Of a stretch of DNA of 36,663 nt, positions 8,891 through 11,839 are shown piece after piece. The stretch is from NCBI GenBank assembly GCA_016866815.1, contig VGKZ01000001.1, positions 1 through 36,663 on the forward strand, written 5' to 3'. This DNA comes from Candidatus Peregrinibacteria bacterium (lineage in GTDB: Bacteria; Patescibacteriota; Gracilibacteria; Peribacterales; Peribacteraceae). The notes beneath the pieces were generated by a model. It saw only the letters and a list, made by a program, of their open reading frames with translations. It was not told the origin of the DNA and did no database searches. Positions within the stretch are counted from its first letter, which is position 1. Every line of letters starts with the position of its first letter. Both the position numbers and the translations under genes were made by a program.

Positions 8891-9012
8891 TGACAACCTC
8901 TTATCTCGTGATACGGACAGAGCGCTTCGATGTTCCATGTCGTTAGCCCCCTGACAACCTCTTATCTCGTGATACGGACAGAGTGCTTCGATGTTCCATG
9001 TCGTTAGCCCCC
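8891..9012. repeat. 2 x 61-bp direct tandem duplication, 60/61 identical
   Basis: The unit is TGACAACCTCTTATCTCGTGATACGGACAGAG[C/T]GCTTCGATGTTCCATGTCGTTAGCCCCC, at 8891-8951 and 8952-9012. The end of the second unit runs into the 30-bp palindrome. Confidence 0.9.
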
Positions 9013-9032
9013 GAATTAATTCGGGGGCTAAC
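9003..9032. terminator. 30-bp perfect palindrome GTTAGCCCCCGAATTAATTCGGGGGCTAAC between the converging PBP and yebC genes; possible bidirectional terminator hairpin
   Basis: I verified it is a perfect reverse complement of itself. The stem is 13 bp with a TTAA loop. There is no U-tract, so terminator function is uncertain. Confidence 0.4.
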
Positions 9033-9063: not shown

Positions 9064-9843
9064 TTATCCCAGCTTTCCCGCCACCACCTCATCGATATCC
9101 GCATTGGTATGCACCTCGGAGACGTCATCCTCTTCCTCCAGCAGCTCGATGATGTGCAGCAGTTTGCGTGCAGTTTCGGTGTCATTGATCCTGGCCTTCT
9201 GCGTGGGCACGTACTGCAATCCTGCGCTGAGGATTTCATAGCCTTTACCTTTCAAAAAATCACGGACGCGTGTCCACTCGGTCATATCCGTGGTAACGGT
9301 CAGAATATCGCCGTCTTCGGCGATGTCCTCTGCACCGAAATCGATCAGCTCAAGTTCCATGTCGTTAGCCCCCGAATTAATTCGGGGGCTAACTTCTTTT
9401 TTGCCGCTACCCTTGGCTGTGACGACGCCTTTCCGCGCGAACATCCACATTACCGATGCGGATTCTGCAAGGTTCCCCCCGTTCTTACTCAGGATGATCT
9501 TTATATTCGTGAGCGTCCTATTTCTATTGTCCGTCAGGCACTCGATGATGATCGCAGAATTGCCGGGACCGTATCCTGCATAGAGTTCCTCCGTCATCAT
9601 ATCGCCCTTCAGTTCCCCCGTACCCTTCTTGATGGCACGTTCGATGTTGGCATTCGGCACACTATCCATTTTGGCATTCTCAATCGCCGTCGCGAGTCTC
9701 GCATTCGTATCCGGGTCGCCGCTGCCGCCCACGCGTGCCGCAATTTCGATGAGCTTGCTGTGACGCGTGAAAATTTTGCCGCGCTTCGCATCCTGCGCGC
9801 CTTTCCGAATGCGGATATTGGCCCATTTGCTGTGTCCTGACAT
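9064..9843 (-). CDS. yebC: YebC/PmpR family DNA-binding transcriptional regulator
   Basis: It starts MSGHSKWANIRIRKGAQDAKRGKIFTRHSKLIEIAAR. Later motifs are YAGYGPGNSAIIIECLTDNRNRT and LEEEDDVSEVHTN. Confidence 0.92.
   Translation of the reverse strand: MSGHSKWANIRIRKGAQDAKRGKIFTRHSKLIEIAARVGGSGDPDTNARLATAIENAKMDSVPNANIERAIKKGTGELKGDMMTEELYAGYGPGNSAIIIECLTDNRNRTLTNIKIILSKNGGNLAESASVMWMFARKGVVTAKGSGKKEVSPRINSGANDMELELIDFGAEDIAEDGDILTVTTDMTEWTRVRDFLKGKGYEILSAGLQYVPTQKARINDTETARKLLHIIELLEEEDDVSEVHTNADIDEVVAGKLG
9364..9393. repeat. second copy of the 30-bp perfect palindrome, inside yebC and in frame (10 codons, VSPRINSGAN)
   Basis: The 40-nt block GTTCCATGTCGTTAGCCCCCGAATTAATTCGGGGGCTAAC is identical at 8993-9032 and 9354-9393. 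Confidence 0.9.
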
Positions 9844-10759: not shown

Positions 10760-10816
10760 TGCTGTTCGTGGGTAAAACCCGACCCGCCTTGGCGGATGGG
10801 GGAAATCAGCTACGGG

Positions 10817-10846
10817 ACTCTAGGGGAGGCGGGGAGGGGGGGTCAA
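10817..10846 (-). promoter_or_regulatory. possible rpsF promoter: -35 TTGACC, 18-nt spacer, -10 TAGAGT (minus sense)
   Basis: The + strand reads ggtcaa at 10841-10846 and actcta at 10817-10822. The spacer is the G-rich tract. Confidence 0.25.
10821..10841. repeat. G-rich heptamers TAGGGGA GGCGGGG AGGGGGG (+ strand)
   Basis: Read directly. The composition matches the GTAGGGG family found in the island. Confidence 0.6.
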
Positions 10847-10879
10847 GGAATTATGTCGCATTTATACTCACCAGCTCTC

Positions 10880-11027
10880 GTATGGAGGGCCCACCTTCGC
10901 ACTGGATGGCTTGCCAACCGTAGCAATGCGGTTTCGTGCACGCAAAAATCACACTGACCTTCAGTGCTACGGTGGGCAGACTACGCGTTGCGTTCAAGTC
11001 GCCCACCTACGCGCGAGATGGCTTGCC
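10880..11027. repeat. two copies of a 36-nt imperfect direct repeat (10880-10915 and 10992-11027, about 31/36 identical) flanking stem-rich sequence
   Basis: The repeat reads CCCACCT[T/A]CGC[ACTG/GCGA]GATGGCTTGCCAACCG[T/A]AGCA. The intervening stems are CCGTAGCA/TGCTACGG, CACTGA-CCT-TCAGTG and GGTGGGCaGACT-N14-AGTCGCCCACC. Confidence 0.7.
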
Positions 11028-11109
11028 AACCGAAGCAGCAGGGCTATGGTGAACCGCCAGCCTGCGCTCGCCTCCGGGCGAGCTTCGGCCGGCAACCTGC
11101 TGCGCAGGT

Positions 11110-11250
11110 TGGAGCCGTCGATGGGGACCTGCCTGCCGGCAGGCAGGTTGAACCCATGACCCCGTCCTTACCATGGACGTGCCGCTGCGCGGCAGAGTTT
11201 TTTTATGTGTGCGTCTCACGTTGTTCGACGCACCACTGAGCTACAACGGC
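11110..11250 (-). pseudogene. tRNA-Thr(GGU)-like gene interrupted by two insertions (probable pseudogene)
   Basis: It aligns end to end with the intact copy at 11324-11398, with three exceptions. The 20-nt palindrome CCTGCCTGCCGGCAGGCAGG (11128-11147) sits in the T-loop. A 49-nt block (11183-11231) replaces 3 nt of the D-arm. There is one acceptor-stem change, C to T, giving a G-U pair. Confidence 0.7.
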
Positions 11251-11323
11251 AAATGGAGCCCTGAAAGGACTGCGTCTCAAGCCACTCACGCTTCGCTCAC
11301 GCTCGCGTTCGAGAGCTTTCGAC

Positions 11324-11398
11324 TGGAGCCGTCGATGGGGATTGAACCCATGACCCCGTCCTTACCATGGACGTGCTCTACCACTGAGCTACGACGGC
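11324..11398 (-). tRNA. tRNA-Thr (anticodon GGU), CCA encoded
   Basis: Manual cloverleaf: GCCGTCG TA GCTC AGTGGTA GAGC A CGTCC AUGGUAA GGACG GGGTC ATGGG TTCAATC CCCAT CGACGGC T CCA. Confidence 0.9.
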
Positions 11399-11419
11399 GT
11401 ATGCGCACGCGAGTCTACA

Positions 11420-11839
11420 TTATTGGTCTGCAAGTTCCACGGTGTCGATCCAGGATTGCGGGGTTTTTCCGGCATGTTTTCGCAATGCGTTCTTGAGTGT
11501 GTGCAGCCCCAGGAGCGCGCACTTGAAGCGCCGCGGACCGACGGGTACGCCGAGTAGTGCATACATGTCGTTCTTTGTCATCCGTTCGATGTCGTTCGAA
11601 GTCTTGCCAACCAACTCTTCAGCGAGGATCGACATTCCCGCTTGTGAGATTGCACAGCCGCTCCCTTCCCATGTGACATCGGTCATAACGCCATTTGTTA
11701 TTGTGAATGCGATTGTGAGTTCGTCCCCGCAACTCGGATTCTGCTCTGCGTGAGTGACATGCCAGTCCGTAGGTACGATCGTTCCCTTTCCTCTGGGGTT
11801 CCGGTAATGCTCGAGAATGTTCTCTGCGTAGAGGTCCAT
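11420..11839 (-). CDS. sufU: SufU/IscU-type Fe-S cluster assembly scaffold / sulfur acceptor
   Basis: Motifs seen: LYAENILEHYRNPRGKG, NPSCGDELTI, WEGSGCAISQAGMSILAEELVGK, PRRFKCALLGLHTLKNAL. ATG 11839 (MDLYAE...) is preferred over the track start at 11923. Confidence 0.85.
   Translation of the reverse strand: MDLYAENILEHYRNPRGKGTIVPTDWHVTHAEQNPSCGDELTIAFTITNGVMTDVTWEGSGCAISQAGMSILAEELVGKTSNDIERMTKNDMYALLGVPVGPRRFKCALLGLHTLKNALRKHAGKTPQSWIDTVELADQ

What the first reader, a model, noticed from the sequence alone, without database searches (positions are those of the whole stretch)
11110..11250. Duplicate tRNA-Thr(GGU) split by a 20-bp perfect palindrome in the T-loop and a 49-nt insert in the D-arm
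Outside the two insertions, this copy matches the intact tRNA at 11324-11398. The one exception is a compensable acceptor-stem change.

Insert 1 is CCTGCCTGCCGGCAGGCAGG (11128-11147), a perfect palindrome. It falls between T-loop positions 58 and 59.

Insert 2 (11183-11231) replaces 3 nt of the D-arm. On the + strand it contains GCCGC-TGC-GCGGC followed by T7, which looks like a terminator.

Simple excision of insert 2 does not restore the D-stem (AGA is missing). A decaying pseudogene is therefore the most likely reading.

Two independent hairpin insertions in one 75-nt gene, plus the palindrome in yebC, suggest this genome hosts small GC-rich palindromic insertion sequences. The alternative, processed non-canonical tRNA introns, is known in Archaea at positions such as 58/59 but not in Bacteria. 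It would be remarkable.
Basis: partly seen in the sequence, partly recalled or inferred. Interest (0 to 1): 0.62.

Follow-up and report, generated by a model that had tools for sequence, protein, structure and literature searches.

The report
Palindrome-tagged dead tRNA copy
The split tRNA-Thr is a dead duplicate, not an intron-bearing gene, and its 20-base palindrome is the invariant tag of a small nuclease-gene cassette, not found in the papers I searched, that sits in tRNA genes of many bacterial phyla and some viral contigs.

Summary
Window 11110-11250 (-) is a second tRNA-Thr(GGU). It matches the intact gene at 11324-11398 except for C6>T, a clean 20-bp perfect palindrome ("PAL", CCTGCCTGCCGGCAGGCAGG) between T-loop positions 58 and 59, and 49 nt replacing A21-G22-A23. 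Independent assemblies carry the same sequence. ARAGORN and Rfam do not recognise the copy, and related Peribacteria (CPR) have a single tRNA-Thr here. It is a pseudogene; the intron reading has no support.

PAL is not a local oddity. The exact 20-mer occurs in more than 120 unrelated genomes and 35 viral-contig stretches. I fetched 80 loci using only a ~80-aa minimal GIY-YIG (UPF0213/Slx1-like) protein as query. About 40 of them hold the exact PAL and most of the rest hold decayed variants. The usual layout is displaced tRNA fragment split by PAL, then the ORF, then an intact tRNA. I measured 34 clean insertions without target duplication.

The window has PAL and the duplicate but no ORF. It is most likely an ORF-less relic or derivative of such a cassette. 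How PAL works is unknown.

The parts
11324..11398 (-). Intact tRNA-Thr(GGU), CCA encoded. This is the functional gene.
   Evidence: ARAGORN. Rfam RF00005 at 67.3 bits. Orthologous single tRNA-Thr after sufU in Peribacteria loci L164, L166, L168.
11419..11448 (-). Promoter-like site (TCGACA-18-AATAAT) about 20 nt upstream of the intact tRNA.
   Evidence: Consensus scan, 10 of 12 matches. This is a pattern match only.
11251..11323 (-). 73-nt spacer between the intact tRNA and the displaced copy. It holds no ORF. GGCTCCA, the last 7 nt of the tRNA, sits 3 nt before the copy's 5' end.
   Evidence: Sequence. No similarity elsewhere in the window or loci. No GIY-YIG remnant.
11232..11250 (-). Displaced copy, tRNA positions 1-20: acceptor 5' strand, D-stem 5' strand and D-loop. 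Carries C6>T.
   Evidence: Alignment.
11183..11231 (-). 49-nt insert replacing A21-G22-A23 at the D-loop/D-stem boundary. It forms two small hairpins. Read on the + strand it contains a terminator-like hairpin plus T7. The end next to the tRNA junction, CTGCGCGGCAG, is the PAL core plus one base.
   Evidence: Unique: no other copy in the window, in about 270 loci, or in the metagenome scan. That scan returned no stretch at all, so it does not seem to hold the source contig and is a weak negative.
11148..11182 (-). Displaced copy, tRNA positions 24-58: end of D-stem, anticodon arm with GGU, variable loop, T-stem 5' strand and first 5 nt of the T-loop. 35/35 identical to the intact gene.
11128..11147 (.). 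PAL: the perfect palindrome CCTGCCTGCCGGCAGGCAGG, inserted cleanly between T-loop positions 58 and 59. It is the invariant junction element of the GIY-YIG/tRNA cassettes.
11110..11127 (-). Displaced copy, tRNA positions 59-76: end of T-loop, T-stem 3' strand, acceptor 3' strand and CCA. 18/18 identical.
10951..10967 (-). Terminator-like hairpin plus T-run downstream of the copy. If real, the intact tRNA and the copy are co-transcribed.
   Evidence: Consensus scan. This is a pattern match only.

Best explanation
The segment 11110-11250 is a non-functional, displaced duplicate of the neighbouring tRNA-Thr(GGU) gene. It is of the kind left behind by a small selfish cassette that inserts into tRNA genes.

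Shown here from other genomes. The full cassette is a ~75-85-aa minimal GIY-YIG nuclease ORF of the UPF0213 / bacterial Slx1-like type, flanked by direct repeats of part of the target tRNA. One repeat belongs to an intact tRNA, so the host keeps the gene. The other repeat is a displaced fragment split, without target duplication, by the invariant 20-bp palindrome PAL. PAL lies in or at the edge of a loop-coding segment. There are two polarities:
- fragment+PAL, then ORF, then intact tRNA;
- intact tRNA, then (ORF), then fragment or whole copy with PAL.

The window has the second polarity, with PAL in the T-loop as in L259, L029 and L039, but it has no ORF.

Inferred.
- The simplest description of the window is one 214-bp insertion at position 58|59 of the original tRNA-Thr: tRNA 59-76, the 73-nt spacer, tRNA 1-58, then PAL at its end. 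It is either a cassette that lost its ORF or a non-autonomous derivative.
- The 49-nt insert lies at the D-loop/D-stem boundary, the commonest PAL site in other cassettes. It may be the decayed remnant of a second event.
- The nuclease probably makes the break in the tRNA gene, and the cassette is copied in by repair that uses the tRNA-derived repeats as homology. PAL ends up exactly at the former break in the displaced copy.
- PAL's strict conservation implies that it is itself recognised, as a hairpin or cruciform or as a symmetric binding site. This step is not shown.
For: Pseudogene status.
- No tRNA call by ARAGORN or Rfam.
- Intact paralog 73 nt away.
- Single tRNA-Thr at the orthologous site in Peribacteria.

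The DNA is real: identical in independent assemblies and runs.

PAL is cosmopolitan.
- 35 viral-contig stretches.

PAL is linked to the cassette.
- 80 loci were fetched by GIY-YIG protein similarity alone. 56 have an intact tRNA within 250 nt after the ORF.
- 51 of those have a duplicated tRNA segment before the ORF.
- 40 of the 80 hold the exact PAL, 39 of them within 300 nt before or 400 nt after the ORF.
- Most of the other 40 hold PAL variants with 1-5 changes at the same place.
- 34 PAL insertions are clean when measured against the adjacent intact tRNA.

Window-type layouts exist elsewhere, with PAL in the T-loop of a copy downstream of the intact tRNA and no ORF between: L259 (twice) and L029. 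L039 has a T-loop PAL with an ORF remnant. L258 and L225 have near-full copies with PAL downstream.

ORF clades follow the tRNA type (Leu, Arg-TCG, Arg-ACG and so on), while PAL is identical in 35 cassettes whose proteins share a median of 55% identity and a minimum of 39%.

The protein matches Pfam GIY-YIG and PDB 1ywl and 1zg2 (UPF0213), then SLX1.

In the set of loci found by PAL alone, 15 of 163 copies lie in tRNA-derived DNA, against 4 of 1550 control positions.
Against: - No GIY-YIG ORF or remnant is detectable in the 36.6-kb window or in about 150 kb of related Peribacteria loci. The link between this locus and a cassette rests on analogy.
- About 90% of PAL copies found by PAL alone are solo, with no ORF or tRNA-derived DNA nearby. 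PAL may therefore move or persist on its own.
- The 73-nt spacer and the 49-nt insert resemble nothing else.
- The reconstituted tRNA keeps an intact target, so a simple homing-with-immunity model does not fit. Tandem pile-ups (L215, L259, L029) fit repeated insertion but do not prove it.
- A ~80-aa GIY-YIG domain has no obvious DNA-binding module to explain tRNA specificity.
- No nuclease activity, mobility or transcript has been observed.
Confidence: 0.55

Rival explanations
1. Two unrelated processes. An ordinary local tandem duplication of the tRNA-Thr gene made a spare copy. That copy then passively collected insertions, one of them PAL acting as a free-standing ultra-small mobile palindrome. 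PAL would be comparable to the very small dispersed repeats of cyanobacteria, mitochondrial GC clusters or REPs, and it survives wherever DNA is neutral. No cassette was ever at this locus.
For: - Most PAL copies are solo in intergenic DNA with unrelated flanks.
- PAL also sits inside short tandem repeats: 25 of 160 flanks against 4% of controls.
- PAL appears nested in older PAL copies (L018, L042).
- The window has no ORF.
- The same genome carries another palindrome inserted in frame in yebC and again downstream of it.
Against: - PAL is 35-fold enriched in tRNA-derived DNA.
- In those cases it sits in the displaced member of a duplicated pair. Duplication and PAL co-occur far more often than independent events would allow.
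- Copy number per genome looks low. The capped list shows mostly one stretch per assembly, unlike a proliferating REP-like element.
- No transposase-like partner is enriched near PAL. The only enriched protein family is the GIY-YIG ORF.
Confidence: 0.3
2. The interrupted copy is a working tRNA gene. Its two inserts are removed from the transcript as non-canonical, archaeal-style introns at positions 20-23 and 58/59.
For: - Both inserts are self-contained hairpins placed in loops.
- The RNA fold keeps the acceptor, anticodon and T stems: MFE -63.5 kcal/mol, z = -3.7.
- CCA and the anticodon are intact.
- The C6>T change still pairs, as G.U.
Against: - Excising insert 2 leaves the D-stem short by AGA.
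- There is no bulge-helix-bulge at either junction in the fold.
- An intact identical-anticodon gene is adjacent, so nothing requires the copy to work.
- In 34 other loci the PAL-bearing piece is the redundant, usually truncated copy.
- Decayed, non-compensated PAL variants are common, as expected for DNA under no RNA-level constraint.
- No RNA data exist for this organism.
Confidence: 0.02
3. The expanded cloverleaf, or the + strand antisense transcript bounded by the promoter-like site at 11023-11050 and the terminator at 11180-11204, is a functional non-coding RNA. It could be, for example, a tRNA-like decoy or regulator of the downstream rpsF operon.
For: - The fold is more stable than shuffles.
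- Promoter-like and terminator-like sites on the + strand bracket the antisense of the copy.
- The sequence is identical in several samples.
Against: - No Rfam family matches.
- There is no conservation in related Peribacteria, which lack the whole structure.
- The identity across samples reflects one population, not selection.
- Consensus promoter and terminator hits are weak evidence.
Confidence: 0.05
4. Assembly or sequencing artefact: a chimeric join or adaptor-like palindrome.
For: Perfect palindromes can arise from library artefacts. Most hits are in metagenome-assembled genomes.
Against: - The sequence is identical in JGI, ENA and Logan assemblies of different runs, at normal depth.
- The flanks are contiguous tRNA sequence.
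- PAL also occurs in isolate genomes: Winogradskyella, Flagellimonas, Longitalea, Flavivirga, Namhaeicola, Lutimonas.
Confidence: 0.01

Closest known systems
Free-standing GIY-YIG homing endonuclease genes of phages, especially T-even SegB, which is associated with tRNA genes and drives their segmental amplification (PMC13096335)
   Same: - A GIY-YIG nuclease gene lies beside or inside tRNA genes.
- Duplicated tRNA segments flank it, with tandem pile-ups.
- It spreads horizontally across hosts.
- The host tRNA stays intact.
   Different: - The cassette protein is only about 75-85 aa. It is a bare UPF0213/Slx1-like catalytic domain with no DNA-binding domain. Seg proteins are larger and modular (my own knowledge).
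- The cassettes are mostly chromosomal and occur in Bacteroidota, CPR, Planctomycetota, Nitrospirota and other phyla.
- An invariant 20-bp palindrome marks the displaced copy. I know of nothing like this for Seg genes, and the papers searched describe nothing like it.
- No cleavage or homing has been shown here.
Integrase-borne genomic islands and prophages in tRNA genes, which leave one complete and one partial tRNA copy (PMC9897764; Williams 2002, as cited there)
   Same: - One intact tRNA plus a displaced partial copy as a direct repeat.
- Arrays of displaced 3' fragments, as in L029.
   Different: - There is no integrase.
- The DNA between the copies is 73-330 bp, not kilobases.
- Displaced copies can be 5' fragments, 3' fragments or whole genes.
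- The junction carries PAL rather than a shared core site.
REP/REPIN elements with RAYT transposases, and palindrome-associated derivatives of IS200/IS605 (PMC3116915)
   Same: Short GC-rich hairpin-forming repeats inserted without target-site duplication, mostly intergenic.
   Different: - REPs are imperfect palindromes with a conserved GTAG-type head. They are species-specific and present in tens to hundreds of copies (my own knowledge).
- PAL is a perfect 20-mer, identical across phyla, apparently low in copy number, and linked to a GIY-YIG gene rather than a HUH gene.
Very small mobile repeats: the small dispersed repeats of cyanobacteria (Elhai et al. 2008, from memory; cited in PMC3116915), GC clusters and palindromic elements of fungal mitochondria (e.g. 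PMC7218506), and Rickettsia palindromic elements in genes
   Same: - Elements of about 20-50 bp that are palindromic.
- They are found inside other repeats, heptamer tandem repeats and genes.
- Their mechanism is unknown.
- The yebC 30-mer behaves like an RPE-type in-frame insertion.
   Different: Those families are lineage-restricted and have no associated protein gene. PAL is cross-phylum and is a fixed part of a protein-coding cassette.
Archaeal non-canonical tRNA introns (bulge-helix-bulge, including position 58/59) and bacterial group I introns in tRNA anticodon loops (PMC3984707)
   Same: Extra sequence in loop positions of a tRNA gene.
   Different: - No BHB motif and no ribozyme-sized intron.
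- The interrupted copy is redundant and unrecognisable as a tRNA.
- The D-stem cannot be restored by excision.

Membership tests
Functional canonical bacterial tRNA gene (for the copy at 11110-11250) | Recognised by tRNA covariance and heuristic models | tested here: not met
   ARAGORN finds only 11324-11398. Rfam tRNA gives no hit on the copy even at E<=10.
Functional canonical bacterial tRNA gene (for the copy at 11110-11250) | Intact 4-bp D-stem and 7-nt T-loop | tested here: not met
   A21-G22-A23 is replaced by 49 nt. The T-loop is split by 20 nt between positions 58 and 59.
Archaeal-type spliced tRNA intron | Bulge-helix-bulge motif at both exon-intron junctions | tested here: not met
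   The MFE and centroid folds show PAL as a plain 9-bp hairpin rising from the T-loop, and insert 2 as two plain hairpins. There is no 3-nt bulge / 4-bp helix / 3-nt bulge.
Archaeal-type spliced tRNA intron | Excision restores a complete tRNA | tested here: not met
   Removing insert 2 leaves AGA missing. Across about 165 PAL copies, in-silico excision gives a predicted tRNA in 2 cases, and only one (viral L149) is an otherwise whole gene.
Archaeal-type spliced tRNA intron | Spliced mature RNA exists and a splicing endonuclease is encoded | not testable with these tools
   Only DNA metagenome runs hold this sequence. The rest of the genome is not available.
Group I intron in a tRNA gene | Ribozyme-sized insert (over 200 nt, P1-P9 core) in the anticodon loop | tested here: not met
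   The inserts are 20 and 49 nt and lie in the T-loop and D-arm. There are no Rfam intron hits.
PAL / minimal GIY-YIG tRNA cassette (family defined in this report) | Exact or near-exact PAL (CCTGCCTGCCGGCAGGCAGG) | tested here: met
   Exact at 11128-11147.
PAL / minimal GIY-YIG tRNA cassette (family defined in this report) | PAL splits a displaced tRNA copy cleanly (no duplication, no loss) in or beside a loop-coding segment | tested here: met
   Position 58|59 of the T-loop, clean against the paralog. The same class of site occurs in L259, L029 and L039.
PAL / minimal GIY-YIG tRNA cassette (family defined in this report) | Intact copy of the same tRNA adjacent on the same strand | tested here: met
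   11324-11398, 73 nt upstream of the copy in tRNA orientation.
PAL / minimal GIY-YIG tRNA cassette (family defined in this report) | A ~75-85-aa GIY-YIG ORF between the repeats | tested here: not met
   hmmsearch with profiles of 5 and about 70 cassette proteins against six-frame translations of the whole window gave nothing better than E=2.4. The window can only be an ORF-less relic or derivative, not a full member.
REP/REPIN (RAYT-mobilised) | Imperfect palindrome with a conserved tetranucleotide head, species-specific sequence, many copies per genome | tested here: not met
   PAL is a perfect palindrome, identical across phyla, present once in 36.6 kb, and mostly one stretch per assembly in the capped list.
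REP/REPIN (RAYT-mobilised) | RAYT (Y1 HUH) gene in the genome | not testable with these tools
   The genome outside the window is not available. No HUH-like family is enriched near PAL in 155 loci.
MITE / classical IS derivative | Terminal inverted repeats plus target-site duplication | tested here: not met
   PAL is nothing but two abutting 10-nt arms. 34 of 34 measurable insertions have no target-site duplication.
Integrase-mediated island att site | Integrase gene and kilobase-scale element between the full and partial tRNA copies | tested here: not met
   Only 73 nt separate the copies. The neighbours are sufU, sufS, rpsF, rpsR and yebC.

The most novel reading that the evidence does not exclude
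PAL and the ~80-aa Slx1-like GIY-YIG ORF together form a previously unrecognised class of minimal selfish element. It colonises genes for stable RNAs (tRNA, and at least once 5S rRNA) in at least seven bacterial phyla and in viral contigs.

The nuclease has no DNA-binding domain. It would act on structure: loop regions of tRNA-gene DNA, and the PAL hairpin or cruciform. PAL would be the element's cis-acting end.

PAL might even move on its own as a 20-nt blunt hairpin that is cut out at its base and ligated into a nick. That would explain three things: the perfect symmetry, the exact 20-nt unit with no target duplication, and the many solo copies.
Probability: 0.3. Interest if true: 0.85.

Novelty: new variant of a known kind. 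Interest (0 to 1): 0.72.

Why it matters
For this window, the result removes a tempting but wrong reading, namely bacterial tRNA introns. It also explains why a tRNA gene is duplicated and broken.

More broadly, a 20-bp sequence that stays identical while the protein beside it diverges to about 40-55% identity is very unusual. It does so across Bacteroidota, CPR/Patescibacteria, Planctomycetota, Nitrospirota, Ignavibacteriota, Acidobacteriota and viral contigs. This points to a sequence-specific step that nobody has described.

The UPF0213/YhbQ/YazA family of bare GIY-YIG domains has solved structures. I know of no established function for it, and the papers I searched give none. These cassettes offer a concrete and testable one.

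The cassettes also matter for annotation. They create tRNA fragments and pseudo-tRNAs, and occasionally tRNA calls with a false long variable arm, as in L149.

Finally, the clean, duplication-free insertion of a perfect hairpin, and its habit of sitting in loop-coding DNA of highly transcribed RNA genes, could expose a new route of DNA insertion.

Tried and rejected
- Literature: full-text searches for PAL and three other palindromes as strings found nothing. Searches combining GIY-YIG with tRNA, palindrome, Bacteroidetes, UPF0213/YhbQ and tRNA fragments found no description of these cassettes.
- Rfam: no family matches the copy, PAL or the 10760-11110 region.
- GIY-YIG remnants in the window or in Peribacteria loci: none.
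- Other copies of the 49-nt insert or the 73-nt spacer: none in the window or loci. The metagenome scan with a 30-mer returned nothing at all. The source contig is apparently not in that collection, so this is a weak negative.
- Counting PAL copies in the source population by laying Logan contigs on a 48-nt stretch: the aligner returns only the locus itself.
- RNA evidence: no RNA runs exist for the window. For a Dokdonia cassette, metatranscriptome hits share only a few words, probably just the tRNA, and were not pursued.
- A mobilising enzyme in cis: all-against-all clustering of ORFs within 2.5 kb of PAL in 155 loci found only the GIY-YIG family to be enriched. ParB and a four-helix-bundle (23S IVS-type) family recur in 4-5 loci, which I judged incidental.
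- Chimerism test: does the copy's T6 come from a donor with T6-A67, as in L168? This was inconclusive, because the rest of the copy matches the host gene.
- Plasmid collection: only housekeeping UPF0213 homologues (yazA-like) at 51% identity or less, with no cassettes.
Full report
**1. The observation**

ARAGORN and Rfam call one tRNA in the window, tRNA-Thr(GGU) at 11324-11398 on the minus strand. The stretch 11110-11250 aligns to it in three exact blocks:
- tRNA 1-20 = 11232-11250, with the single change C6>T;
- tRNA 24-58 = 11148-11182;
- tRNA 59-76 = 11110-11127.

Between the blocks lie two inserts. The first is the perfect 20-bp palindrome CCTGCCTGCCGGCAGGCAGG, here called PAL, at 11128-11147. 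It sits exactly between A58 and T59, with nothing duplicated or lost. The second is 49 nt at 11183-11231, in place of A21-G22-A23.

PAL occurs once in the window and never in shuffles. The whole intergenic stretch is letter-identical in a JGI contig and an ENA contig. The PAL junction is covered without differences by Logan contigs of several lake-water metagenome runs, at the depth of the flanks.

**2. Setting**

The neighbours are PBP1, yebC, rpsR, rpsF, then the tRNA region, then sufU and sufS. A second palindrome in the window is found as an exact 30-mer only in Candidatus Peribacteria MAGs. The best SufU relatives are Peribacteria at 65% identity or less. The source is therefore an uncultured CPR bacterium from lake water.

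In three related Peribacteria a single tRNA-Thr(GGU) follows sufU, with no second copy. The duplication is specific to this lineage.

**3. Is the copy a gene?**

It is not recognised as a tRNA even at E<=10. As RNA it would fold into an expanded cloverleaf that keeps the acceptor, anticodon and T stems, with PAL as a 9-bp hairpin rising from the T-loop and insert 2 as two hairpins. However:
- the D-stem cannot be rebuilt by excision;
- a 20-nt hairpin between positions 58 and 59 would break the T-loop;
- there is no bulge-helix-bulge motif;
- an intact gene with the same anticodon lies 73 nt away.

No RNA data exist for this organism. A pseudogene is the only reading with support.

**4. PAL is not local**

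They come from Patescibacteria, Bacteroidota (including isolates), Omnitrophota, Planctomycetota, Nitrospirota, proteobacterial MAGs and others. The flanks are unrelated. About one hit is expected by chance for a 20-mer in 596 Gb. It is also in 35 viral-contig stretches.

Several copies lie inside tRNA-derived sequence next to an intact tRNA of the same kind. In some of these a small ORF lies between the two. That ORF is a bare GIY-YIG domain (Pfam PF01541). Its closest solved relatives are the UPF0213 proteins 1ywl and 1zg2, followed by SLX1. This is the bacterial Slx1-like family described as the minimal GIY-YIG form (PMC1564403).

**5. The reciprocal test**

I fetched 80 loci using only an alignment of four such proteins as query. 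The results were as follows.
- 56 have an intact tRNA within 250 nt after the ORF stop, on the same strand and mostly 5-20 nt away. The types are Arg, Leu, Gly, Lys, Asn, Phe and Ala.
- 51 of these carry a duplicated segment of that tRNA just upstream of the ORF.
- 40 of the 80 loci contain the exact PAL, 39 of them within 300 nt before or 400 nt after the ORF.
- Most of the other 40 have PAL variants with 1-5 uncompensated changes at the same relative position.

The common layout is tRNA(1..p), PAL, a few more tRNA bases usually ending in the anticodon loop, a short AT-rich leader, the ORF, a few nt, then the intact tRNA.

A second layout has the opposite polarity: intact tRNA with its terminator, ORF, then a partial or nearly whole tRNA copy carrying PAL, followed by the duplicated terminator (L225, L241, L246, L251, L256).

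Measured against the adjacent intact paralog, 34 PAL insertions are clean, with no target duplication and no loss. The sites lie in or beside loop-coding parts:
- the D-loop and the D-loop/D-stem boundary;
- the anticodon stem-loop boundaries;
- the start of the variable region;
- the T-loop.

Protein clades follow the tRNA type, while PAL is the same in all clades. Thirty-five exact-PAL cassettes share a median of 55% and a minimum of 39% protein identity.

In the set found by PAL alone, 15 of 163 copies sit in tRNA-derived DNA against 4 of 1550 controls. The GIY-YIG ORF is the only protein family enriched nearby.

**6. Reading the window in this light**

The window has the second polarity: intact tRNA first, PAL-bearing copy after. 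PAL is in the T-loop. The same arrangement without an intervening ORF occurs at a tRNA-Leu in L259, where two tandem units each have PAL in the T-loop, and at a tRNA-Thr(CGU) in L029. L039 has a T-loop PAL with an ORF remnant. L258 and L225 have near-full copies downstream.

The most economical description is one 214-bp insertion at 58|59 of the original gene. It consists of tRNA 59-76, the 73-nt spacer, tRNA 1-58 and PAL. It regenerates an intact tRNA on one side and leaves the PAL-tagged copy on the other.

No GIY-YIG ORF or remnant is present in the window. The locus is therefore either a cassette that lost its ORF or a non-autonomous derivative. This is inference by analogy.

The 49-nt insert lies at the D-loop/D-stem boundary, which is the commonest PAL site elsewhere. 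Its junction-proximal end, CTGCGCGGCAG, is the PAL core plus one base. Three other such matches exist in 36.6 kb, so this is only suggestive. No other copy of the insert was found.

**7. Mechanism: what is shown and what is inferred**

Shown:
- the architecture;
- the clean insertions;
- the invariance of PAL;
- the link between protein clade and tRNA type;
- tandem pile-ups (L215, L224, L235, L259, L029).

Inferred:
- The nuclease breaks the tRNA gene at the site later occupied by PAL.
- The cassette is copied in by repair that uses the tRNA-derived repeats.
- Because the rebuilt tRNA keeps its target, repeated insertion makes arrays.

Phage SegB is a precedent. It is a GIY-YIG homing endonuclease associated with tRNA genes and causes their segmental amplification (PMC13096335).

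Not explained:
- how an ~80-aa domain finds tRNA genes;
- why PAL must be this exact sequence.

The options for PAL are a cis site recognised as a hairpin or cruciform by a structure-specific Slx1-like enzyme, a symmetric binding site, an RNA hairpin stabilising the ORF message, or a device that splits the repeat so the cassette cannot recombine out. The last two would not need an invariant sequence.

The many solo copies leave room for independent movement of PAL. Some lie in heptamer tandem repeats, some appear nested in older PAL copies, and some lie in a displaced 5S rRNA fragment or another local duplication.

**8. Comparison with known systems and novelty**

The known relatives in kind are:
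- free-standing GIY-YIG homing genes such as SegB;
- integrase-made tRNA fragments (PMC9897764);
- REP/REPIN elements (PMC3116915);
- very small palindromic repeats of cyanobacteria, mitochondria and Rickettsia.

None of these combines a bare Slx1-like nuclease, tRNA-segment duplication and a cross-phylum invariant palindrome. Eight literature searches found no description. The library lacks most subscription journals, so prior description cannot be excluded.

I rate the family as a new variant of a known kind, namely homing-endonuclease-type selfish cassettes. The window's locus is an ORF-less relic of it.

**9. Verdict**

- Observation: confirmed.
- Pseudogene reading: supported.
- Intron reading: not supported.
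- The idea of small palindromic insertion sequences is right in outline, but the element is far wider and more structured than supposed.
- Confidence that the copy is non-functional: about 0.9.
- Confidence that PAL is a regular component of GIY-YIG/tRNA cassettes: about 0.85.
- Confidence that this particular locus derives from such an event rather than from an unrelated duplication plus a solo PAL insertion: about 0.55.

Noticed in passing
window 9364-9393 and 9003-9032: A second perfect palindrome, the 30-mer GTTAGCCCCCGAATTAATTCGGGGGCTAAC, occurs twice.
- One copy is inside the yebC coding sequence (9064-9843, minus strand). It is in frame and adds VSPRINSGAN where E. coli and Aquifex YebC have a gap.
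- The other copy is about 30 nt downstream of the yebC stop.
- Both copies are preceded on the + strand by the same GTTCCATGTC.
- The exact 30-mer is found in the genome collection only in Candidatus Peribacteria MAGs, in unrelated flanks.
   Followed up: partly
loci L002-L154 (flanks of PAL), e.g. L045:773, L101:1815, L082:346, L125:11254: Solo PAL copies often sit inside short tandem repeats, mostly heptamers. 25 of 160 PAL flanks show this against 4% of control positions. Some apparent 7-nt target duplications are simply the repeat unit. This recalls the small dispersed repeats inside heptamer repeats in cyanobacteria (from memory).
   Followed up: partly
L093:780-1140; L109:1100-1560: PAL also tags the displaced member of local duplications that are not tRNA. 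L093 is a fragment of what looks like a 5S rRNA gene next to the intact gene. L109 is a roughly 95-nt unknown segment repeated 224 nt away. The process may therefore target stable-RNA genes in general.
   Followed up: no
L149:2239-2330 and L126:8560-8650 (viral contigs): A viral tRNA-Met carries PAL in the variable region. ARAGORN calls it a 92-nt tRNA with a long extra arm. The related contig L126 has the same gene with part of the T-arm deleted. No intact second copy was seen nearby. This is the one case where a PAL-bearing tRNA might be tolerated or functional.
   Followed up: partly
L011:3333, L015:2858, L016:161, L032:967, L040:2963 and 4469, L108:1248, L110:435; L052, L062, L070; L112:1891-2300: Other GC-rich perfect palindromes recur across unrelated genomes in the same loci.
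- CCGCCAGCTGGCGG appears in 8 places, once inside an ORF.
- CCGATAGCTATCGG appears in 3 places.
- GACAGGTCGCGACCTGTC in L112 forms a 44-bp tandem array.
PAL may be one of several cosmopolitan palindromes.
   Followed up: no
window 10889-11112: Two tandem units of about 112 nt lie between the tRNA copy and rpsF. Each starts with GCCCACCT.CGC....GATGGCTTGCCAACCG.AGCA (86% alike) and ends with a partly complementary arm. The second unit overlaps the first 3 nt of the tRNA copy. There is no Rfam match and no similarity in other loci. A terminator-like site (10951-10967, minus strand) and an rpsF promoter-like site (10817-10846, minus strand) lie in or just below this region.
   Followed up: partly
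L156:815-960: In this viral contig the 'intact' tRNA-Lys copy downstream of the GIY-YIG ORF is itself interrupted at the anticodon loop by unrelated sequence. ARAGORN finds no tRNA. This may be a further insertion or an intron.
   Followed up: no
L029:4650-5150: An intact tRNA-Thr(CGU) is followed by a row of at least four displaced 3' tRNA fragments, each ending in GGCTCCA or similar, at spacings of about 100 nt. The last one carries PAL in its T-loop. This looks like repeated small insertions at one tRNA gene.
   Followed up: no
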